A stretch of 64,000 bases of DNA. Source: Euryarchaeota archaeon UBA257. GTDB taxonomy: Archaea > Thermoplasmatota > Poseidoniia > Poseidoniales > Thalassarchaeaceae. The notes below the pieces were generated by a model that searched no databases, was not told the origin of the DNA, and saw only the letters and a program-made list of their open reading frames with translations. The first letter of the stretch is position 1; every line of letters starts with the position of its first letter. The stretch is from the NCBI GenBank assembly GCA_002498985.1, contig DAJO01000030.1, forward strand, positions 14,586 to 78,585, in the 5' to 3' direction. The translations under genes were made by a program, and so were the position numbers. This document shows positions 19,269 through 36,923 of this stretch, in pieces.

Positions 19269-20582
19269 TTATCCATTTCTAATTGTATTTAGAGCAGCCT
19301 CTACAGTTGCCATTGTTATTCTGTCCCCACTCTCTTTGACGATAGTAGCTACTTGATCAATTTCTTCGTCTTTTGCTCCCGCAGAACTAATCATATTTTT
19401 CAAATGTAATTTCATATGTCCTGCTTGTATTCCAACAGTGGCCAATGCTCTTAATGCACCCAAATTTTGAGCCATACCTGCAGCAGCCATTACTTTAGCT
19501 AAATCATCAGCACTATTTATTCCTAGCAGTGCAACGTTGGTTTGAGCGCCGGGATGTATCCTTACTGCTCCGCCAACCAACCCTACAGCCATAGGGCATT
19601 CTATACTTCCAACTAGGTTCCCATCTGCATCTTTTTCCCAATGTGTCATTGAAGTATACTGCTTCTCATGTGCACAGTAAGAGTGTGCGCCGGATTCAAT
19701 AGCTCTCCAATCTTGCCCGCAAGCTATTGCTATAGGTGAAATTGCATTCATTATTCCTTTGTTATGTGTAGTAGCTCTGAAAGGATCTGCTGCTGCAAAA
19801 TGGTATGCTTGTATTACTCCATCTATTACTTCTGAACCTTGTTTTGCATCTCCACTATCTGACATCTCTTCGGGAGTGAATGTAGCACTAACTCTAGCTA
19901 GTCTATGAATCGCGAGATTACTAATAATCCTTAGAATAACAGTGCCTCCTGACAATGCTTCTATTCTGGGTGCGATAGTTTCTGCCATTGTGTTTACTGC
20001 ATTGGCTCCCATTGCATCTCTACAATCTACTAATATGTGGGCAATGACCATAGGGCCGGACATAGTTTCGATAATTCGAACTTCCACATCTTTGCACCCT
20101 CCTCCAAATTTAACTAAGATAGGGTCTACGTCATTGCACAACTGAATCAACTCATCTTTGGCGGAGAGAATAGATTTTTTGGAGGCTTCAGGATCTTCAC
20201 AATTAACGATTTGAATTTGTCCTATCATGATAGGGTCTGTGTTGTTAGATGTAAATCCTCCATTTGATTGACACCTCTTTGCCATATTGGATGCAGCTGC
20301 TACGACACTTGCTTCTTCAACTACAAAAGGTATCAGATAATGTTCACCATCAATAATGAAATTAGTAGCTACTCCAATTGGTAATGAATATCTACCAACA
20401 ACATTCTCTATCATCCGATCCGCAGCGTCTTCTGATAGTTCTGAGTCTGCCCAAGCATTTACTTGTTCAGGAGTTAGCCCTGCAAGTTGTGCGAGTTTCT
20501 CTCTCCTCTCAGGTACTGATAGTTTGTAAAATCCTTTCAATCGACTGTTATCTACTGGCATGTCTCCACCATTCTTTGCCAA
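19269..20582 (-). CDS. hmgA: Hydroxymethylglutaryl-CoA reductase, class II (bacterial/Thermoplasma-type)
   Basis: ENVVGRYSLPIGVATNF, VVEEASVVAAASNMAKR, RDAMGANAVNTMAE, and C-terminal AQNLGALRALATVGIQAGHMKLH match class II hallmarks (EEPSVVAA, GHMxLH). The longest ORF starts at TTG 20582. ATG 20561 (MPVDNSRLKGFYKLS) aligns better with class II N-termini. Confidence 0.9.
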   Translation of the reverse strand: MAKNGGDMPVDNSRLKGFYKLSVPERREKLAQLAGLTPEQVNAWADSELSEDAADRMIENVVGRYSLPIGVATNFIIDGEHYLIPFVVEEASVVAAASNMAKRCQSNGGFTSNNTDPIMIGQIQIVNCEDPEASKKSILSAKDELIQLCNDVDPILVKFGGGCKDVEVRIIETMSGPMVIAHILVDCRDAMGANAVNTMAETIAPRIEALSGGTVILRIISNLAIHRLARVSATFTPEEMSDSGDAKQGSEVIDGVIQAYHFAAADPFRATTHNKGIMNAISPIAIACGQDWRAIESGAHSYCAHEKQYTSMTHWEKDADGNLVGSIECPMAVGLVGGAVRIHPGAQTNVALLGINSADDLAKVMAAAGMAQNLGALRALATVGIQAGHMKLHLKNMISSAGAKDEEIDQVATIVKESGDRITMATVEAALNTIRNG

Positions 20583-20664
20583 GACATATCGTTTGTAATC
20601 TCTTTGCTTTAAAATGCTTGAATGTATTGATTATTTAAGTTAGATACTATTGTTGAATAATCTC

Positions 20665-20710
20665 AAATCTACTTGTTTATCTTGACATTTATCTTTAGAA
20701 AAGTAGATTT
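20665..20710. repeat. Perfect 10-bp inverted repeat AAATCTACTT-N26-AAGTAGATTT enclosing two TTTATCTT direct repeats
   Basis: Arms at 20665-20674 and 20701-20710. TTTATCTT at 20676-20683 and 20688-20695. Read directly from the sequence. Confidence 0.8.
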
Positions 20711-20729
20711 TATTCTTGGTTATTGACTC

Positions 20730-20899
20730 ATTAAAGCGTTAATTTTCATGTTAACGCTTCGTTAACGCATCAAAAAAGCGTTAATAATGCGTTAATAATA
20801 TTTCTAAAAGATAGTTTTAATCAATTTTTTTAGAGTTTTCTATTTAGTTTTTCAATTAAAGCGTTAATATGGTGAATTAAATGCGTAATTAAGCGTGAG
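20730..20899. promoter_or_regulatory. Array of six perfect and two degenerate GCGTTAA motifs (candidate ORB-like origin repeats or operator array)
   Basis: GCGTTAA on the + strand at 20736, 20778, 20789 and 20861; TTAACGC at 20751 and 20762; degenerate GCGTAAT at 20883 and GCGTGAG at 20893. Palindrome AAGCGTTAA-N8-TTAACGCTT at 20734-20759. 11-bp phasing within pairs 20751/20762 and 20778/20789. The exact 14-mer ATTAAAGCGTTAAT occurs at 20730-20743 and 20855-20868. Near-pure A/T core at 20796-20860. Confidence 0.6.
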
Positions 20900-20929
20900 T
20901 ATTATGAACTAGTACTCTTACCGATAGAT

Positions 20930-22909
20930 ATGTACGACAGTGGAGTCAGTTTGATTGACTTCCCTGCAGTACGAGGGAATCCTTTTGATAACCGACCTAT
21001 TGAATCATCAAGAGCTCAAGATTTAGTTGGACGTAAAGAAATGCTACGCAGATGGAGAGAACATATCCATTCCGGTTCACCTAGAATGATCTTATTAGTT
21101 GGAGAATCAGGATCAGGTAGAACTTCAATGATTAATGCTATATCATCCCAAACTCCAAAGAAATATATTGGGCAGTTTCTTTCGGAGGAGAACGATCAAG
21201 AAAAGTCAGTTCTACATGAGATATTAACTCATTTCACATCATTTCAATCTATAACAACAATGAATCAATTATCTCAAAAGTTAATTTCATTATTTGATGA
21301 AGAGAAAGGGCCTTTACCAATTATTGCTTTAGATTATCCTCCTCAAGTAATAGAAATAAATTCCTTCTTGTCCAGAATTTGTCCAATCCTTTCCAGACTT
21401 AGGGCCATGGTAATTGTAAGTCTGACTGAATCGCAATTATTAGAACTCGACGATGAATTAAGAAACCTTTTTGATGAGCCGGATCGGCTAGAGAATTTCA
21501 CAAAGTCTGATATTCAAGATATGGTTAATAATAGAATGAGACTTAAGTCAAAAGAGAAATGGATAATTAATTCAACGATTCTCAACTCTATATTTCAGCG
21601 AACTGGAGGTAATCCAAGAGATGTAATAAGAATTTTGAAGCGTCTAGTAGATGAAAAAAGAGATCTTGGATACCAAGGGACATTGGAAAGTCTGATGTCT
21701 TCCCAGGAGAATAAGAAACCTATAGTGCCTGAAAGAAAATATGTTGAGGATAAGGAATATACAGACAATTATTTCTCTGAACCCGAAACCTATATTCCAG
21801 AAAATAGGGAACATGATATTGAAAAAGATGATTTTATCGATGAAGAACCATCAGACTTATGGGATTATAATGATGAAGAAAACCTTCCTTTATCGGACAA
21901 TAATGAATCAATCAATGAAGAGCATTCATTGTGGGATGATAACTTTCCCGAAATAGATGAGGATTTAGTTGATGATGAAGCCTTTATTCAGGAAGATAAC
22001 CAAGTGGCTAACTTACCACCAGTATCAGAAGAAATTAATCTTCAAAATGACATATTAGAAAACGAGAAAGAATTGTTTATGTCTCCCGGTACTGAACCTC
22101 CAGAAAGATCGCCGCGACCTGCACCTAGAATGAAAAATGATAAATTTGGTTTCTTACTTAATAGAGCAAAAAAAACAACTTCAGGTATAGAATCAAGTCC
22201 TATGTCCGATGTTCCAATTACTTATGCCGATACTAAACCATCACAATCAACTATAGATGATTATGTCAGTAACGAGAATTTCAGAATTAATAATGATGGC
22301 GACACAGATGTGCCAATCGTTACTGAAGCAAAAGTTGACAGAAACATCCTGTCGACTGATTATGAACACATAGATAGTGATGAAGGGGCAGAATGGACGG
22401 TCGAGCCCTCTTACAAATCTACAGTCCCAAAGACAATCTCAAATCCTCCCCAACCTTACGATGAATCTCCAGAAGTAGAAGAATCTTTTCTCGAGGAACA
22501 GATTTTCGAAGACACTGAAATTGAAGTGCCGATTTCACAAGAACCTGAATTTGATAATCCTGTTGAGTTAATTGAATCAACTCCAATATATCGAGAAGAA
22601 AGTAAGGTAATAATTACCAATGTGACTCCTTCAAAAAAATCAAGATTTTCTCCAATCTGGGAACAAGATAAGAAATTGGATGTTGATAGGTTTTATTCCC
22701 TTTCTGATGCTGAGAGAATGATATTGGAAGTTGCAACATTAAGAGAAATATCTCCATCTGACGATGAATTACAGGCTAGATTAGAAGTCGGACGGCCTCG
22801 CCTATCTCAATTATACAATAGCCTTCACAAATCAGGAATGTTGTCGGTTAGAAAGCAAGGTAGGACTCGATTATTCAAATTAAGCGAAGCTGCCGCAAAT
22901 GAATTTTGA
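20930..22909 (+). CDS. Divergent Orc1/Cdc6-like AAA+ protein: degenerate Walker A and B, acidic disordered linker of about 330 aa, C-terminal winged helix-turn-helix
   Basis: The N-terminal roughly 250 aa parallel the canonical Orc1 in this window. LVGRKEML matches LVGRDREL. The P-loop is GESGSGRT (Lys to Arg, nt 21101-21124). The Walker B position reads IIALDY (nt 21332-21337 for DY) against LVLDEVD. Sensor-2-like GGNPRDVIRILKRL matches GDARLAIELL. The C-terminal roughly 70 aa (LSDAERMILEVATLREISPSDDELQARLEVGRPRLSQLYNSLHKSGMLSVRKQGRTRLFKL) form a wHTH pattern. Confidence 0.55.
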   Translation: MYDSGVSLIDFPAVRGNPFDNRPIESSRAQDLVGRKEMLRRWREHIHSGSPRMILLVGESGSGRTSMINAISSQTPKKYIGQFLSEENDQEKSVLHEILTHFTSFQSITTMNQLSQKLISLFDEEKGPLPIIALDYPPQVIEINSFLSRICPILSRLRAMVIVSLTESQLLELDDELRNLFDEPDRLENFTKSDIQDMVNNRMRLKSKEKWIINSTILNSIFQRTGGNPRDVIRILKRLVDEKRDLGYQGTLESLMSSQENKKPIVPERKYVEDKEYTDNYFSEPETYIPENREHDIEKDDFIDEEPSDLWDYNDEENLPLSDNNESINEEHSLWDDNFPEIDEDLVDDEAFIQEDNQVANLPPVSEEINLQNDILENEKELFMSPGTEPPERSPRPAPRMKNDKFGFLLNRAKKTTSGIESSPMSDVPITYADTKPSQSTIDDYVSNENFRINNDGDTDVPIVTEAKVDRNILSTDYEHIDSDEGAEWTVEPSYKSTVPKTISNPPQPYDESPEVEESFLEEQIFEDTEIEVPISQEPEFDNPVELIESTPIYREESKVIITNVTPSKKSRFSPIWEQDKKLDVDRFYSLSDAERMILEVATLREISPSDDELQARLEVGRPRLSQLYNSLHKSGMLSVRKQGRTRLFKLSEAAANEF

Positions 22910-22918
22910 GGAATAATT

Positions 22919-23215
22919 ATGTCAGACAATGGAAGTATCGTATCTAAAGAAAAAGTTCAGAAGTATCTCGATTTAACTACTGAAGCAAGATTAAAAGCCA
23001 CTCCAATTACAAATAATATTGAAGATGAAAAAAGGCTTGAAGATATGCTTAAGATGTGCGATGACTACCAAAAAGACGCTCTTTACTTCATGAATAATGG
23101 AGATTTAGTCCGTGCTTTCGGTGCCATTAATTATGCTCATGCATGGATTGATGCTGCTGTTAGAATTGGCTTACTAGATGGCCATGGAGATGACAGATTG
23201 TTTACTCTACCTTAA
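22919..23215 (+). CDS. Small conserved archaeal protein, DUF357-like
   Basis: 98 aa. INYAHAWIDAAVRIGLLDG resembles the YAHGWLDAGVRLGL signature I associate with DUF357. GAGGAA SD upstream. Family assignment is from memory only. Confidence 0.5.
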   Translation: MSDNGSIVSKEKVQKYLDLTTEARLKATPITNNIEDEKRLEDMLKMCDDYQKDALYFMNNGDLVRAFGAINYAHAWIDAAVRIGLLDGHGDDRLFTLP

Positions 23216-23580
23216 TTCTGTATAAACCTCAATACATTTTTTGAAGTTACTTCAATGTATGAACCACCTGTATTAATTAATCTCTCTTTCAATTTCCTAT
23301 CTACAGTTAGAACTGGCCATCTATTCTCTCTTGATAATTCTAGTAACATTTGGTCAGTATGCCTTAATCCTTCAGGTGCCTTGACTAATTCTGACTTCTT
23401 ATCTAATAGATCCAACAAAAGCCCTCTTCTTTGTTTTGATAATGATAACAACTCTTTTTTGACTTTTTCCAATAATAGATATTTTGGTTTCCCAACAATT
23501 TTACTCATTGCAATATCTATGTTAAGTTCAGCATCAACTAATGCTGCCCATCCGCAAGCGTCTATTAGGACGCATTCCAA
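23212..23580 (-). CDS. PIN-domain protein (predicted nuclease) downstream of eIF2-gamma
   Basis: 122 aa. N-terminal VLIDACGW (first acidic residue) and VLTVDRKLKERL (T-x-D motif) fit a PIN fold. TTG start with GGGGTGA 6 nt upstream. S6e-eIF2gamma-PIN synteny is common in archaea. Confidence 0.55.
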   Translation of the reverse strand: MECVLIDACGWAALVDAELNIDIAMSKIVGKPKYLLLEKVKKELLSLSKQRRGLLLDLLDKKSELVKAPEGLRHTDQMLLELSRENRWPVLTVDRKLKERLINTGGSYIEVTSKNVLRFIQN

Positions 23581-23586
23581 GTAGAT

Positions 23587-25378: not shown

Positions 25379-26557
25379 TCATCTTTGCAATTCTTTCTCG
25401 ATTCTTTCTGCTAAATTTGCAGGTGCTACATTGTTCATTGTAATATATTGAGTCCTACCTCTTCCAACATTTGATTTGTCGTTTCTTGTTTCAATTAAGC
25501 CCTGATTTTCTAGAAATTTTAGATGCTTCCAAAATGTAGTATAACTTCTAGCTTTAGTTTCATATTCTTCACAAACAATTTTGTAAAGTTTTTCGGCATC
25601 TCCTGTGTTTATTTCAGACTCCTTTTTCAATCTTCTACAAAGTCCAAGCATGATCAATTTTTGATCTTTCGAAAGCACATCTACTTGACTTGGTTCAATT
25701 GCAGCAACTCTTGCTGAGCTTTGTTCAATATCTTCAATTAGAACTTCACCTCTCCCTGATGATTCAGCCCTTCTTATGGATGAATCAAGTAGTTCAATAG
25801 CTAATCTAGCATCTCCTGATTCTGCAGCCATAACTCCTATTTTTTGTAGAACTTCTTCACTTATTGAACCATTTCTACAGGCTATATCTGCTCTCTGTCG
25901 CGCAATTTCTGTCAATCCCTTTTTATCGTAAGGATTCATTTTTAGGATATTACTTGCACCTAACCTTGATATTATTGCAGGCTCAAATAACTTCAGCAGC
26001 ATAGAATCTTGACTTACTAATATCAATGACAAAGAACCCTGTTTTTCTTGCCCTTCATCAATTCTGAGAAGTTTGTATATCAAATCAGAATTATCCCTTC
26101 TAATTAACAAATCAACTTCATCAAGAACCAATAGAAGGTGGCTATTATGTGAAATTAGGTTTCTTCTAATTGATTGTATAATTTCTCCCGAACTAAGGCC
26201 TCTTTCAGGATGTCCAGAGTCCAATGTAGAAGCAATTCGTTGTAATACTTGAGAAGTTGAGGGGTGGTTTCTACAATTTACATGTGCTAGAACAACTTTC
26301 CTTTTTCCTTCTAAATGACTTAACAAATCATGTCCAAAACGTCTTGTTAGAACGGTCTTACCTGAGCCAACAGGTCCTGTTATTACTGCTCTACAACTTG
26401 AATTATGATTCTCTACATGAGTAAACATACTGGCTAGTTCAGTTAGTTCTCTATCTCTTCCTACTAAGTTGTCAGGTGTCCAGTCAAAAGAAAAAGGCTC
26501 TCTATTTACCAAAACTTTCCCTGCACCTATGCGGTCGAGGTATCCTGGCATCAGCAC
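25379..26557 (-). CDS. cdc6: Orc1/Cdc6 replication initiator (canonical)
   Basis: 392 aa. LVGRDRELTEL, Walker A GPVGSGKTV, Walker B LLLVLDEVD, sensor 2 GDARLAIELL and a C-terminal winged helix (TFWKHLKFLENQGLIETR...GRGRTQYI). Confidence 0.92.
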   Translation of the reverse strand: MLMPGYLDRIGAGKVLVNREPFSFDWTPDNLVGRDRELTELASMFTHVENHNSSCRAVITGPVGSGKTVLTRRFGHDLLSHLEGKRKVVLAHVNCRNHPSTSQVLQRIASTLDSGHPERGLSSGEIIQSIRRNLISHNSHLLLVLDEVDLLIRRDNSDLIYKLLRIDEGQEKQGSLSLILVSQDSMLLKLFEPAIISRLGASNILKMNPYDKKGLTEIARQRADIACRNGSISEEVLQKIGVMAAESGDARLAIELLDSSIRRAESSGRGEVLIEDIEQSSARVAAIEPSQVDVLSKDQKLIMLGLCRRLKKESEINTGDAEKLYKIVCEEYETKARSYTTFWKHLKFLENQGLIETRNDKSNVGRGRTQYITMNNVAPANLAERIEKELQR

Positions 26558-35945: not shown

Positions 35946-36791
35946 TCAAGGCTCCACATTTCTAATAGTGTCTCCAAAGTCACTTATTTCATCCCAAGAC
36001 CTTGCTTTCTCTTCTATTTGATTAATTTTCATTTCTTCCTTAATGCTACCACCCCTTAATTTCACTAAATTTTTTCTACTGAGTAATTTAGGACTTAAGC
36101 CAGGTAGTATCACACCAATTGCACGAGGGACTCTACCGGGGTATACGTCGTTTACGTGTGATGCAATATTTGTAGTGCAATTATTGAATATGCTATTATA
36201 AAACTCAGGTTTATTATGTAAATCATTGGTTCTTTTTAGATATGATTCTAACATTCTACACTGGTTTCCTTCCCCTAAAATGACGGCTTCAAAAAGATGA
36301 GTTTCAGATTTTCTACATCTACTTCTTACACCAATTACATCTTCTTCAGTAGCCCAGACATACATTATTTCAAACTCTCTTAATAGCCCTTTTAATGGAC
36401 TAAATCTTTCACTAGGCTCTCTTCTAATTTCTATTGAACACGAGATTCTATCTCCATTTTTAAATTCGAAACTTAGTAAAGTGTGTGCAACAGGTCTTCT
36501 AGTTGGATAAAAATATTCTAGAACTAACCATATCTTAGTACATTCAGATATCTTAAACTTCTTTTCTATCCATCGCTCATCATAATCTTTTGTTGTTCTC
36601 CAATTAAAATCTCTGACATTTTTTAGTATTACATCGTCTCCATTTATTTCTGCAAAAGAAGTAAATTTGTTTTCATTTACCCATGATAAATCGTTAGAAG
36701 GGGTTAGATGCCTTATTCTTGACCATACCCATAATAATAGGATAGTGACTGATAATATCAGAACTAAAGTCATTACAGTCAGGTAATTCAT
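35946..36791 (-). CDS. N-terminally anchored membrane protein, DUF4105 (Lnb N-terminal domain)-like
   Basis: One N-terminal TM helix (MNYLTVMTLVLILSVTILLLWVW). VAHTLLSFEF and YNSIFNNCTTNIASHV resemble DUF4105 blocks (from memory). The start is trimmed to ATG 36791 because the longer ORF (to 36890) overlaps the tRNA-Ser gene. Confidence 0.5.
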   Translation of the reverse strand: MNYLTVMTLVLILSVTILLLWVWSRIRHLTPSNDLSWVNENKFTSFAEINGDDVILKNVRDFNWRTTKDYDERWIEKKFKISECTKIWLVLEYFYPTRRPVAHTLLSFEFKNGDRISCSIEIRREPSERFSPLKGLLREFEIMYVWATEEDVIGVRSRCRKSETHLFEAVILGEGNQCRMLESYLKRTNDLHNKPEFYNSIFNNCTTNIASHVNDVYPGRVPRAIGVILPGLSPKLLSRKNLVKLRGGSIKEEMKINQIEEKARSWDEISDFGDTIRNVEP

Positions 36792-36836
36792 GGCTGTGCT
36801 GAGAACGACGTAAACAAGAAACCTCCTATCAATTAA

Positions 36837-36923
36837 TGGCGCGGCAGGGGAGATTCGAACTCCCGAGGTGAAACACCACTGGATTAGCAATCCAGCGCAA
36901 TGGCCAGGCTATGCGACTGCCGC
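36837..36923 (-). tRNA. tRNA-Ser (anticodon GCT), type II with a long variable arm and genomically encoded CCA
   Basis: Folded by hand. Acceptor GCGGCAG/CTGCCGC; D stem GCA/TGC with a GG-containing loop; anticodon stem CTGGA/TCCAG with loop TTGCTAA; variable arm GGTG-TTT-CACC; T arm GGGAG-TTCGAAT-CTCCC; discriminator G followed by CCA. Confidence 0.95.

What the first reader, a model, noticed from the sequence alone, without database searches (positions are those of the whole stretch)
20583..20929. Largest non-coding gap holds a phased GCGTTAA repeat array and palindromes around an A/T-only core: candidate lineage-specific replication origin
This 347-bp gap is the largest non-coding stretch in the window, where I tally only about 2.1 kb of non-coding sequence overall.

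What the sequence shows:
- Six perfect GCGTTAA copies: + strand at 20736, 20778, 20789 and 20861; TTAACGC at 20751 and 20762.
- Two degenerate copies, GCGTAAT at 20883 and GCGTGAG at 20893. They abut a TATA-like TATTAT (20900-20905) about 27 nt before the ATG at 20930.
- Copies 1 and 2 form the palindrome AAGCGTTAA-N8-TTAACGCTT (20734-20759).
- Copies 3 and 4 form the opposite-polarity pair TTAACGC-N9-GCGTTAA.
- Pairs 20751/20762 and 20778/20789 are direct repeats spaced exactly 11 bp, about one helical turn.
- The 14-mer ATTAAAGCGTTAAT recurs exactly, 125 bp apart.
- The roughly 65 bp between copies 5 and 6 (20796-20860) are almost entirely A/T.
- A second symmetric element, AAATCTACTT-N26-AAGTAGATTT (20665-20710), lies on the hmgA side.

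Interpretation: initiator-binding repeats flanking an A/T-rich unwinding element next to an orc1/cdc6-family gene is the established layout of archaeal origins. As far as I recall, this heptamer does not resemble the published ORB/mini-ORB consensus, so it would be a new repeat type. The alternative is an autoregulatory operator array for the wHTH protein encoded immediately downstream, since the degenerate copies overlap its presumed promoter.
Basis: partly seen in the sequence, partly recalled or inferred. Interest (0 to 1): 0.8.

Follow-up and report, generated by a model that had tools for sequence, protein, structure and literature searches.

The report
Conserved repeat array before Orc-like gene
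Upstream of one gene in Marine Group II archaea lies a strictly conserved set of eight short DNA repeats, which most likely is the docking and self-control site of the unusual replication-initiator-like protein encoded next to it, not a demonstrated replication origin.

Summary
Six perfect GCGTTAA copies, the only ones in 64 kb, and two degenerate copies lie at 20736-20899.

The window comes from a Marine Group II archaeon (Poseidoniales). In 79 related genomes the array sits at the same distances from the downstream start codon, even at about 35% protein identity. There are 336 heptamers inside the array zone and 19 in the other ~1 Mb. The unit is RAWGCGTTAAY, often at an 11-bp period. The last two copies abut the TATA-like box.

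The downstream 659-aa protein has an AAA+ domain whose predicted fold is closest to Orc1/Cdc6. Its ATPase motifs are degenerate. A ~310-aa acidic disordered linker leads to a near-invariant winged helix.

Against an origin:
- The A/T-rich core is lineage-specific. Only its length (~60-66 bp) is conserved.
- The sites flanking the spacer point the same way.
- There is no canonical ORB motif.
- Strand composition at four-fold sites keeps one sign across the locus. The raw GC-skew maximum only reflects a switch in gene orientation.

Best reading (0.5): a multi-site operator platform for the adjacent protein. Origin (~0.2) and centromere-like roles are not excluded.

The parts
20736..20742 (+). 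Site 1, GCGTTAA (extended AAAGCGTTAAT)
   Evidence: 18.1 bits. Exact in 69 of 77 aligned orthologous regions.
20751..20757 (-). Site 2, TTAACGC on the + strand. With site 1 it forms the palindrome AAGCGTTAA-N8-TTAACGCTT.
   Evidence: I8. At most 1 mismatch in 77 of 77.
20762..20768 (-). Site 3, 11 bp from site 2 in the same orientation
   Evidence: D9. At most 1 mismatch in 72 of 77.
20778..20784 (+). Site 4. It is inverted relative to site 3 (TTAACGC-N9-GCGTTAA).
   Evidence: I1. At most 1 mismatch in 76 of 77; GCGTTAG is common in relatives.
20789..20795 (+). Site 5, 11 bp from site 4 in the same orientation
   Evidence: D2. At most 1 mismatch in 77 of 77.
20796..20860 (.). Spacer between the distal cluster (sites 1-5) and the proximal cluster (sites 6-8). 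Its length is conserved; its sequence and A/T richness are not.
   Evidence: Length is 60-66 nt in nearly all loci. GC ranges 0.11-0.54 and correlates with locus GC (r = 0.75).
20861..20867 (+). Site 6, GCGTTAA, at -69 from the ATG
   Evidence: It sits 69-75 nt before the ATG in the 39 loci with a perfect copy there, mostly -69 to -71. At most 1 mismatch in 63 of 77.
20883..20889 (+). Site 7, degenerate GCGTAAT
   Evidence: The GCGT core is exact in 65 of 77.
20893..20905 (+). Site 8, degenerate GCGTGAG, fused to the TATA-like TATTAT. The consensus is GCGTGAAYATTAWG. This is the best-conserved block.
   Evidence: invariant columns. Its role as core promoter is inferred from its position 25-37 nt before the ATG.
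20930..22909 (+). 659-aa gene ('X659'): Orc1/Cdc6-like AAA+ domain (residues ~25-257), acidic disordered linker (~261-571), winged helix-turn-helix (~585-658). It is the presumed binder of the array.
22919..23215 (+). DUF357 gene, 9 bp downstream of X659 and always linked to it; probably co-transcribed
19269..20582 (-). hmgA (HMG-CoA reductase), divergently oriented. The likely true start is the ATG at 20561. Its distance to site 1 varies between species, so the array is anchored to X659 and not to hmgA.
25379..26557 (-). Canonical orc1/cdc6, 4.5 kb away. Given for context; it is not part of the element.
   Evidence: TIGR02928, E = 3e-67. Its synteny is conserved. No GCGTTAA lies in its 71-bp upstream gap.

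Best explanation
The eight repeats (unit RAWGCGTTAAY) are binding sites for the winged helix-turn-helix of the protein encoded immediately downstream.

Proposed mechanism:
- That protein has an Orc1/Cdc6-like but catalytically degenerate AAA+ domain. It probably oligomerises through this domain, while its DNA-binding domains hang on ~310-residue acidic flexible tethers.
- Several copies can therefore occupy the distal cluster (five sites, partly at an 11-bp period) and the proximal cluster (three sites) at the same time.
- The two most proximal sites abut the TATA-like box, so occupancy would block TBP/TFB and shut off the gene's own, probably leaderless, promoter. That is negative autoregulation. 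The distal cluster would supply cooperativity.

Shown:
- the sites exist, are unique and are conserved across the order;
- their register relative to the start codon is fixed;
- the protein has this domain make-up.

Inferred:
- who binds the sites;
- that the protein oligomerises;
- the sign of regulation.
For: - All six perfect heptamers of the window lie here. The next best site in 64 kb scores 9.3 bits against 17-19 bits.
- In 79 Poseidoniales loci, 336 heptamers lie within 200 bp upstream of the promoter block and 19 in the other ~1 Mb.
- Site order and distance to the ATG are kept down to ~35% protein identity. The distance to hmgA varies.
- Sites 7 and 8 are fused to the best-conserved block, GCGTGAAYATTAWG, 25-37 nt before the ATG.
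- The downstream protein ends in a winged helix with ArsR/BigR-like sequence similarity. This domain is almost invariant across the family, which matches an invariant DNA motif.
- Some clades replace inverted copies with three or four tandem copies at an 11-bp period (L041, L047, L052, L054, L056, L071 and L074). The motif and its phase are conserved, not a hairpin.
- The site 5 to site 6 distance varies from 72 to 78 bp among loci with the standard layout. That fits flexibly tethered domains better than a rigid loop.
- There is precedent for an Orc1/Cdc6 paralogue acting as a transcription regulator: Orc1-2 of Sulfolobales (PMC6061795, PMC9738581).
Against: - No binding data exist. The binder could be another factor.
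- Eight sites kept in fixed architecture across a whole order is more than ordinary autoregulation needs. It hints at a higher-order chromosome function, such as an origin or a centromere-like site.
- The promoter and transcription start are inferred only. Other promoters in the window show no clear common TATA to calibrate against.
- The fold search with the winged helix alone was inconclusive.
Confidence: 0.5

Rival explanations
1. The gap is the chromosomal replication origin of Poseidoniales, or one of several. GCGTTAA repeats would replace canonical ORB elements as initiator-binding sites, bound by the Orc-like 659-aa protein and/or the canonical Orc1. The spacer would be where DNA is opened or MCM is loaded. 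Autoregulation of the adjacent gene would be a by-product, as at orc-adjacent origins elsewhere.
For: - It is the largest intergenic region in the window.
- It lies directly upstream of a gene with an Orc1/Cdc6-like AAA+ fold and a C-terminal winged helix.
- The canonical orc1 is 4.5 kb away and has no intergenic room of its own: 71 bp and 66 bp.
- smc-scpA-scpB lie next door, and the synteny is conserved across the order.
- The arrangement of the repeats is conserved across the order, as reported for ORB clusters in Thermococcales (PMC1904270).
- The site cluster is unique in 64 kb.
- The spacer is 85% A+T in this lineage.
Against: - Four-fold-site purine skew keeps the same sign on both sides. 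Left is -0.139 (CI -0.173 to -0.106) and right is -0.082 (CI -0.115 to -0.049). The cumulative curve has no extremum at 20.8 kb.
- Genes of the same orientation on either side have similar skew.
- The raw GC-skew maximum coincides with genes converging on the gap. This is the opposite of the divergent orientation usual at origins.
- Spacer A/T richness is not conserved: GC reaches 0.54.
- Sites 4-5 and 6-8, which flank the spacer, point the same way. The inverted pairs are only 8-9 bp apart.
- No TTCC...GAA ORB core lies in the gap, and there is no such cluster anywhere in the window.
- The protein has Arg in place of the Walker A Lys, and Tyr in place of the Walker B Glu.
- Caveats: only two minus-strand genes lie on the left side, it is not shown that these genomes carry a replication-linked skew, and a weak or secondary origin would leave none.
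Confidence: 0.2
2. The array is a centromere-like or chromosome-organising site. Two iteron clusters would be coated by the adjacent DNA-binding protein, as in parC/ParR or tubC/TubR. The complex would mark the chromosome for segregation or SMC-ScpAB loading, and would also repress the adjacent promoter.
For: - The layout resembles R1 parC. parC has two sets of five 11-bp iterons in 159 bp next to the par promoter, and they serve as both operator and centromere (PMC2241845). Here five plus three sites of an 11-bp unit span about 165 bp.
- In tubC/TubR the binding protein is a winged-helix protein that also regulates transcription (PMC6009700).
- The array is always adjacent to smc-scpA-scpB.
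- There is a single cluster in 64 kb.
Against: - No ParA, ParM or TubZ-type motor is encoded in the operon or next to it.
- The AAA+ domain resembles initiators and clamp loaders, not partition ATPases.
- The resemblance is one of layout only.
Confidence: 0.12
3. The array is an operator for a different transcription factor, encoded elsewhere, that controls the divergent hmgA / X659 promoters.
For: - It is a divergent promoter region.
- The identity of the binder is untested.
Against: - The hmgA-proximal half of the gap is not conserved, and the distance from the array to hmgA varies.
- No second site occurs in the 64-kb window, and no recurrent second site in the +/-7 kb around the 79 loci. 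A trans-acting factor with a regulon would be expected to have more.
- The adjacent near-invariant winged helix is the simpler candidate.
Confidence: 0.1
4. The inverted repeats encode a structured RNA or a transcription attenuator rather than protein-binding DNA.
For: - Copies 1/2 and copies 2-3/4-5 can pair as hairpins.
Against: - The consensus fold of 77 sequences is -3.38 kcal/mol, with a covariation term of -0.07. The pairs are invariant and not compensatory.
- Clades with all-direct copies lose the hairpins but keep the motif.
- No Rfam match was found.
Confidence: 0.02

Closest known systems
Orc-adjacent archaeal replication origins (oriC with ORB/mini-ORB repeats, e.g. Pyrococcus, Sulfolobus oriC1, Aeropyrum)
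   Same: - A cluster of short repeats lies in the intergenic region directly upstream of a gene with an Orc1/Cdc6-like AAA+ plus winged-helix layout.
- The arrangement is conserved across an order.
- The sites reach into the gene's promoter.
   Different: - The repeat is a 7-11-bp unit, RAWGCGTTAAY, and lacks the TTCC...GAA core (PMC1904270).
- Units are packed at an 11-bp period, unlike 13-36-bp ORBs.
- The A/T-rich region is not conserved.
- The flanking sites are not inverted across the spacer.
- There is no strand-composition switch.
- The adjacent protein is not a sequence-level Orc1/Cdc6 and has degenerate ATPase motifs.
Orc1-2 of Sulfolobales (a non-initiator Orc1/Cdc6 paralogue acting as a transcription regulator; PMC6061795, PMC9738581)
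   Same: A protein built on the Orc1/Cdc6 plan (AAA+, then winged helix) that is used for promoter binding and not for origin firing.
   Different: - Orc1-2 is a clear sequence-level Orc1/Cdc6 with a compact architecture and a regulon of many promoters.
- Here the protein has a ~310-aa acidic disordered insert, a Walker A Arg and a Walker B Tyr.
- Only one target is known, and it is an eight-site array.
Iteron-type plasmid centromere-operators (R1 parC/ParR; pBtoxis tubC/TubR)
   Same: - Two clusters of ~11-bp repeats span ~160 bp at the promoter of the adjacent operon.
- They are bound cooperatively by the operon's own small DNA-binding domain and serve as its operator (PMC2241845, PMC6009700).
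   Different: - This element is chromosomal and restricted to one archaeal order.
- Site orientation is mixed.
- The promoter lies downstream of the proximal cluster, not between the clusters.
- No cytomotive NTPase partner is present.
ArsR/SmtB-type winged-helix repressors (BigR, HlyU)
   Same: They give the best sequence matches to the C-terminal domain. They too are autoregulatory operator binders.
   Different: - Those are ~100-aa dimers that bind one or two inverted repeats.
- Here the domain is the tail of a 659-aa AAA+ protein, and the sites occur in several orientations and spacings, which suggests monomeric docking.

Membership tests
Archaeal Orc1/Cdc6-dependent replication origin | ORB or mini-ORB repeats with the conserved TTCC...GAA core (PMC1904270) | tested here: not met
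   TTCCN4GAA gives 19 matches in 64 kb against 13 expected. None lies in the gap and there is no cluster. The repeats here are RAWGCGTTAAY.
Archaeal Orc1/Cdc6-dependent replication origin | An A/T-rich unwinding element flanked by initiator sites in inverted orientation | tested here: not met
   The spacer is 85% A+T here, but its GC ranges 0.11-0.54 across relatives and tracks genome GC. The sites on both sides of the spacer are all on the + strand.
Archaeal Orc1/Cdc6-dependent replication origin | Adjacency to an orc1/cdc6 gene | tested here: inconclusive
   The adjacent gene is Orc-like only at the fold level. The canonical orc1 is 4.5 kb away, and this layout is conserved.
Archaeal Orc1/Cdc6-dependent replication origin | A switch of strand composition (skew extremum) at the site | tested here: not met
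   The four-fold-site purine skew has the same sign on both sides, and the cumulative curve is monotonic. The raw GC-skew maximum follows gene orientation. Only 64 kb could be tested.
Archaeal Orc1/Cdc6-dependent replication origin | Replication initiates there in vivo (marker frequency, 2D gels, ARS assay) | not testable with these tools
Orc1/Cdc6 protein family (for the 659-aa protein) | A match to curated Orc1/Cdc6 models (TIGR02928, PRK00411, Pfam Cdc6_lid and Cdc6_C) | tested here: not met
   Only AAA_16 matches, below its cut-off (30.9 bits against 32.6). NCBIfam gives no Orc1 model. hhalign against the Marine Group II Orc1 gives probability 25% over the N-terminus and P-loop only. The representative search finds only 202 relatives among 1.84 billion proteins; the 150 best listed are mostly same-plan proteins of ~500-730 aa or shorter fragments, and Orc1/Cdc6 identity cannot be checked because the library carries no names.
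Orc1/Cdc6 protein family (for the 659-aa protein) | AAA+ fold of the initiator clade, followed by a C-terminal winged helix | tested here: met
   The top Foldseek hits in the PDB are ORC1/Cdc6 of human, yeast, fly, Aeropyrum (2v1u) and Sulfolobus (2qby_A), with E = 3e-7 to 1e-6. RFC, TnsC and RuvB follow closely. The model shows two helices between strands 2 and 3, and a C-terminal winged helix.
Orc1/Cdc6 protein family (for the 659-aa protein) | Catalytic Walker A Lys and Walker B Asp-Glu | tested here: not met
   GSGRTS has an invariant Arg64, and LDY has invariant Asp135-Tyr136, across the aligned homologues (20, 62).
Orc1/Cdc6 protein family (for the 659-aa protein) | A winged helix of the Cdc6_C type | tested here: inconclusive
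   Pfam gives no Cdc6_C match. The best sequence similarity is to ArsR/BigR. The domain-only model is of moderate quality, and all Foldseek E-values are above 0.1.
Autoregulatory operator of a winged-helix regulator | Binding sites overlap or abut the core promoter of the regulator's own gene | tested here: met
   Sites 7 and 8 are fused to the TATA-like block 25-37 nt before the ATG, and this block is conserved in the 77 aligned regions (window plus 76 loci). The promoter itself is inferred.
Autoregulatory operator of a winged-helix regulator | The regulator binds these sites and changes transcription | not testable with these tools
   This needs EMSA or footprinting and in-vitro transcription.
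Iteron-type centromere (parC/tubC-like) | Two clusters of ~11-bp iterons at the promoter of the adjacent operon | tested here: met
   Five plus three sites of an 11-bp unit span ~165 bp. Compare PMC2241845.
Iteron-type centromere (parC/tubC-like) | A cognate partition NTPase (ParA, ParM or TubZ) in the same operon | tested here: not met
   The neighbours are hmgA, DUF357, a PIN gene, eIF2-gamma, S6e and orc1.
Structured cis-regulatory RNA | A conserved secondary structure with compensatory changes | tested here: not met
   RNAalifold gives -3.38 kcal/mol with a covariation term of -0.07. Rfam gives no match.

The most novel reading that the evidence does not exclude
Poseidoniales would have replaced the canonical ORB-Orc1 origin recognition with a new replicator. 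This would be an eight-copy RAWGCGTTAAY array read by a catalytically dead, Orc-derived AAA+ protein whose winged helix sits on a ~310-residue acidic tether. The ~65-bp constant-length spacer would be the helicase-loading or opening zone. The locus would then be the long-sought origin of the most abundant surface-ocean archaea, and would give a cultivation-independent handle for in-situ growth-rate estimates.
Probability: 0.2. Interest if true: 0.85.

Novelty: new variant of a known kind. Interest (0 to 1): 0.6.

Why it matters
Marine Group II archaea are among the most abundant planktonic archaea and are uncultured. Almost nothing is known about their gene regulation or chromosome biology.

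What this locus offers:
- A cis-element and protein pair conserved across the whole order, with single-nucleotide definition.
- A previously uncharacterised protein family with 202 detectable relatives among 1.84 billion representative proteins. It is built on the Orc1/Cdc6 plan, has lost the catalytic residues and has gained a long acidic disordered tether.

Either outcome is of interest. A purely regulatory role would be a second, independent case of an initiator-type AAA+ protein turned into a promoter-bound regulator. An origin or centromere-like role would define a new replicator type and make replication-based growth estimates possible for this group. The binding sites and the domain are small enough for direct in-vitro tests without cultivation.

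Tried and rejected
- Structured RNA. Rfam on the gap and on the whole window found only a tRNA at 36840-36923. RNAalifold on 77 orthologous regions showed no covariation. Rejected.
- Canonical ORB search. TTCCN4GAA shows no cluster anywhere in the window.
- Viral contig scan for GCGTTAAN4GCGTTAA. It returned 120 loci, and none carries the 659-aa gene or its neighbours. A few phage contigs have unrelated 11-bp tandem arrays containing the heptamer. I judged these coincidental.
- Defence-system and phage protein libraries. Only weak generic AAA+ or clamp-loader similarity.
- Winged-helix-only structure model and fold search. Inconclusive, with all E-values above 0.1.
- The hmgA-side inverted repeat (20665-20710). 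Not conserved beyond the two nearest relatives, so I dropped it from the element.
- Skew across the related loci. In the low-GC clade (including the window) the strand component has the same sign on both sides. In GC-rich clades the right-hand value is about 0. Across species the two sides correlate at 0.58 and show no antisymmetric pattern. The same genes recur in every locus, so gene-specific codon effects cannot be separated, and I treat this result as weak.
- Promoter consensus from other genes in the window. No clear common TATA emerged, so the promoter assignment stays an inference.
- Literature searches. Nothing was found on a Marine Group II origin or on this motif.
- Not done: the metagenome-wide pattern scan. 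It would have been swamped by copies of this same locus and by chance hits. Whole-genome skew was not possible, because only +/-7-10 kb of any contig can be fetched.
Full report
**What is there.**
- GCGTTAA occurs on the + strand at 20736, 20778, 20789 and 20861, and on the - strand at 20751 and 20762. These six are the only copies in the 64-kb window, which is expected to hold 2.85 in total.
- The palindrome AAGCGTTAA-N8-TTAACGCTT, the opposite-polarity pair TTAACGC-N9-GCGTTAA, the two 11-bp direct pairs and the exact 14-mer repeated 125 bp apart are all confirmed.
- A weight matrix built from 333 orthologous sites gives the unit RAWGCGTTAAY. The six sites score 17-19 bits, and the next best position in the window scores 9.3 bits.
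- Two degenerate copies, GCGTAAT at 20883 and GCGTGAG at 20893, run into TATTAT at 20900-20905, 25-30 nt before the ATG at 20930.

**Corrections to the observation.**
- The spacer is about 85% A+T and not pure A/T.
- The gap is the largest non-coding stretch only because 23216-23586 holds a PIN_9-like ORF.
- hmgA probably starts at the ATG at 20561.

**Organism and context.** The flanking genes are archaeal: HMG-CoA reductase, eIF2-gamma, S6e, Orc1/Cdc6, a diphthamide synthesis protein and SMC/ScpB. Homologues of the downstream protein come from marine metagenomes. The 80 related loci from species-representative genomes are almost all labelled Poseidoniales, Thalassarchaeaceae or Marine Group II. 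Where the contigs extend far enough, the gene order is the same in these loci: smc, scpA and scpB rightwards; hmgA leftwards; the array; the 659-aa gene and DUF357 rightwards; then the PIN gene, eIF2-gamma, S6e, orc1 and dph2 leftwards.

**Conservation of the array.**
- The array is present upstream of the 659-aa gene in essentially every locus that reaches that far.
- In 79 loci totalling 994 kb, 336 perfect heptamers lie within 200 bp upstream of the promoter block and 19 lie elsewhere. That is 0.019 per kb, at or below chance.
- In the alignment of 77 regions eight sites keep their order and their distance to the start codon: site 1 (+), sites 2-3 (-, 11 bp apart), sites 4-5 (+, 11 bp apart), a spacer, site 6 (+, at -69 to -75, mostly -69 to -71), site 7 (GCGTnAn) and site 8 (GCGTGAAYATTAWG).
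- This holds from 34% to 63% locus GC and down to about 35% protein identity.
- Seven loci from divergent clades carry three or four tandem + copies at an 11-bp period in place of some inverted copies.
- The hmgA-proximal half of the gap, including the AAATCTACTT/AAGTAGATTT inverted repeat, is not conserved. The distance from the array to hmgA varies. The array therefore belongs to the downstream gene.

**Not an RNA.**
- The consensus fold of the 77 sequences is -3.38 kcal/mol with a covariation term of -0.07. The predicted pairs are invariant and not compensatory.
- Rfam finds nothing in the gap.
- Sequence conservation, 11-bp phasing and tolerated changes of orientation all point to protein recognition of double-stranded DNA.

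**The adjacent protein.**
- Pfam gives only AAA_16, below its cut-off, at the N-terminus. NCBIfam and PDB sequence searches give weak RFC-type matches at the N-terminus and ArsR/BigR-type winged-helix matches at the C-terminus.
- The AlphaFold model is confident for residues ~25-257 (AAA+ base and lid) and ~585-658 (three helices and a wing). Residues 261-571 have low confidence apart from two short stretches; by composition this region is acidic and carries a few conserved Trp-containing motifs.
- Foldseek against the PDB ranks ORC1 and Cdc6 of human, yeast, fly, Aeropyrum and Sulfolobus first, with E = 3e-7 to 1e-6. RFC, TnsC, RuvB and MuB follow closely.
- Walker A reads GSGRTS with an invariant Arg where Lys is expected. 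Walker B reads LDY, with no Glu.
- A profile comparison with the canonical Orc1 of the same genomes is weak: probability 25%, covering only the N-terminal LVGR motif and the P-loop.
- A full HMMER search of 1.84 billion representative proteins finds only 202 relatives. Many of the 150 best hits are proteins of ~500-730 aa matching both ends of the profile. The rest match only one part or are fragments.
- The C-terminal winged helix is almost invariant.
- In short, the protein follows the Orc1/Cdc6 plan but is not a sequence-level member. It is probably not an active ATPase, and its DNA-binding domain sits on a long flexible tether.

**Testing the origin reading.**
- *Skew.* The raw cumulative GC skew has a broad maximum at 18-23 kb. 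This is where gene orientation switches from + to -, and the coding strand is G-rich.
  - To remove that effect I used four-fold degenerate third positions. Genes on + and - strands show opposite coding-strand purine skew, so the + strand is pyrimidine-rich throughout.
  - The strand component is -0.139 (gene-bootstrap 95% CI -0.173 to -0.106) left of the gap and -0.082 (CI -0.115 to -0.049) right of it. The coding-strand component is about 0.
  - 13 of 15 genes on the left and 23 of 31 on the right show pyrimidine excess on the + strand. The cumulative curve falls through 20.8 kb with no extremum there. It only flattens over 23.6-28.9 kb, a stretch that includes the translation genes.
  - Across the related loci the two sides share the same sign in the low-GC clade and correlate at 0.58, with no antisymmetric pattern. 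This second result is weak, because the same genes recur in every locus.
- *A/T richness.* Spacer GC ranges from 0.11 to 0.54 and tracks genomic GC (r = 0.75). Spacer length stays at 60-66 nt in nearly all loci.
- *Site orientation.* The sites flanking the spacer point the same way. The inverted pairs are only 8-9 bp apart.
- *ORB motifs.* The canonical mini-ORB core (TTCC...GAA; PMC1904270) is absent from the gap and forms no cluster in the window.
- *Gene orientation.* Genes converge on the gap and do not diverge from it.

**What still favours an origin.**
- The gene next door is Orc-like.
- The canonical orc1 is 4.5 kb away with no intergenic space of its own.
- smc-scpAB are adjacent.
- Eight sites kept in a fixed layout across an order is more than simple autoregulation usually needs.

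**Limits of the skew test.** It covers only 64 kb. The left side has only two minus-strand genes. It assumes that the observed strand asymmetry is replication-linked.

**Most likely mechanism.** The winged helix of the adjacent protein docks on the RAWGCGTTAAY units. The varied orientations and the 72-78-bp variation in the distance between the clusters among loci with the standard layout fit independently tethered domains better than a rigid dimer or loop. The AAA+ domains probably hold several subunits together. Sites 7 and 8 abut the TATA-like block, so a loaded array should exclude TBP/TFB, which is the usual archaeal mode of repression (established knowledge). The gene would thereby limit its own expression. 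The sites, their conservation and the domain structure are shown. The binder, the oligomer and the sign of regulation are inferred. I put this at 0.5.

**Rivals.**
- An origin that also acts as operator: 0.2.
- A centromere-like or SMC-related platform: 0.12. It would be analogous in layout to parC/ParR, which has two sets of five 11-bp iterons in 159 bp serving as both operator and centromere (PMC2241845), or to tubC/TubR (PMC6009700).
- A different transcription factor: 0.1.
- A structured RNA: 0.02.

**Comparison with known systems.**
- The element works most like an iteron-type operator.
- The protein is closest in plan to Orc1/Cdc6. There is precedent in Orc1-2 of Sulfolobales for an initiator paralogue that acts as a transcription regulator (PMC6061795, PMC9738581).
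- It fails the defining tests for an ORB-type origin: motif, conserved unwinding element, inverted flanking sites and skew switch.
- The protein fails those for sequence-level Orc1/Cdc6 membership.

I found no publication on this motif or on a Marine Group II origin. I classify it as a new variant of a known kind and rate its interest as moderate to high.

Noticed in passing
window 23212-23580 (- strand): The 371-bp stretch between DUF357 and eIF2-gamma looks like a gap. It holds a 122-aa PIN_9-like ORF (E = 2e-5, just below the Pfam cut-off). The spacing is conserved at ~376 bp in most related loci.
   Followed up: partly
whole window, 1-64000: At four-fold degenerate sites the + strand is pyrimidine-rich whichever way the genes point. 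The strand component is about -0.08 to -0.14 and the coding-strand component about 0. The whole window appears to lie in one replichore. This suggests these genomes carry a usable replication-type skew.
   Followed up: yes
L017-L037, L046, L057-L062 and others, alignment A3 columns ~120-165: In the GC-richer clades the spacer carries semi-conserved motifs, roughly AAAACGnnnTACTG and CTCGGAA. These are absent from the window's own low-GC clade. They could be a second factor's site or a clade-specific promoter.
   Followed up: no
L068 9412-12738; L076 9319-11900; L015, L049 and L064 (~0.8-0.9 kb): Several genomes have insertions of 0.8-3.3 kb between DUF357 and eIF2-gamma. Elsewhere this stretch is a constant ~376 bp.
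   Followed up: no
L060 (PAQG01000020.1): The contig is labelled Acidimicrobiaceae bacterium, but it carries the full Marine Group II synteny block and the array. It is almost certainly mis-binned.
   Followed up: partly
L187 1733-1830; L166 2702-2775; L120 2003-2051; L172 5998-6026; L165, L164 and L160: Viral contigs unrelated to this locus carry 3-5 GCGTTAA copies, mostly at an 11-bp period, just upstream of ORFs. They look like independent iteron or operator arrays that happen to share the heptamer.
   Followed up: partly
window 21710-22640 (protein residues ~261-571): The acidic disordered linker contains short conserved motifs with invariant or near-invariant Trp and Pro: DEEPxDLWD, ELFMxPGTEPP, VPITYAD, EGAEWxVEPS and FxPxWExD. 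They look like docking motifs for unknown partners.
   Followed up: no
window 36840-36923 (- strand): A tRNA gene overlaps the annotated TTG start (36890) of the mechanical ORF 35946-36890. The true start of that ORF must lie further downstream.
   Followed up: no
window 20562-20640: In the low-GC clade, ~60 bp upstream of the hmgA ATG (20561) are conserved, including TTTAAA at ~20609-20614. A GGTGGAG stretch lies just before the ATG. This suggests hmgA has a leadered mRNA with a Shine-Dalgarno-like element, whereas the 659-aa gene appears leaderless.
   Followed up: partly
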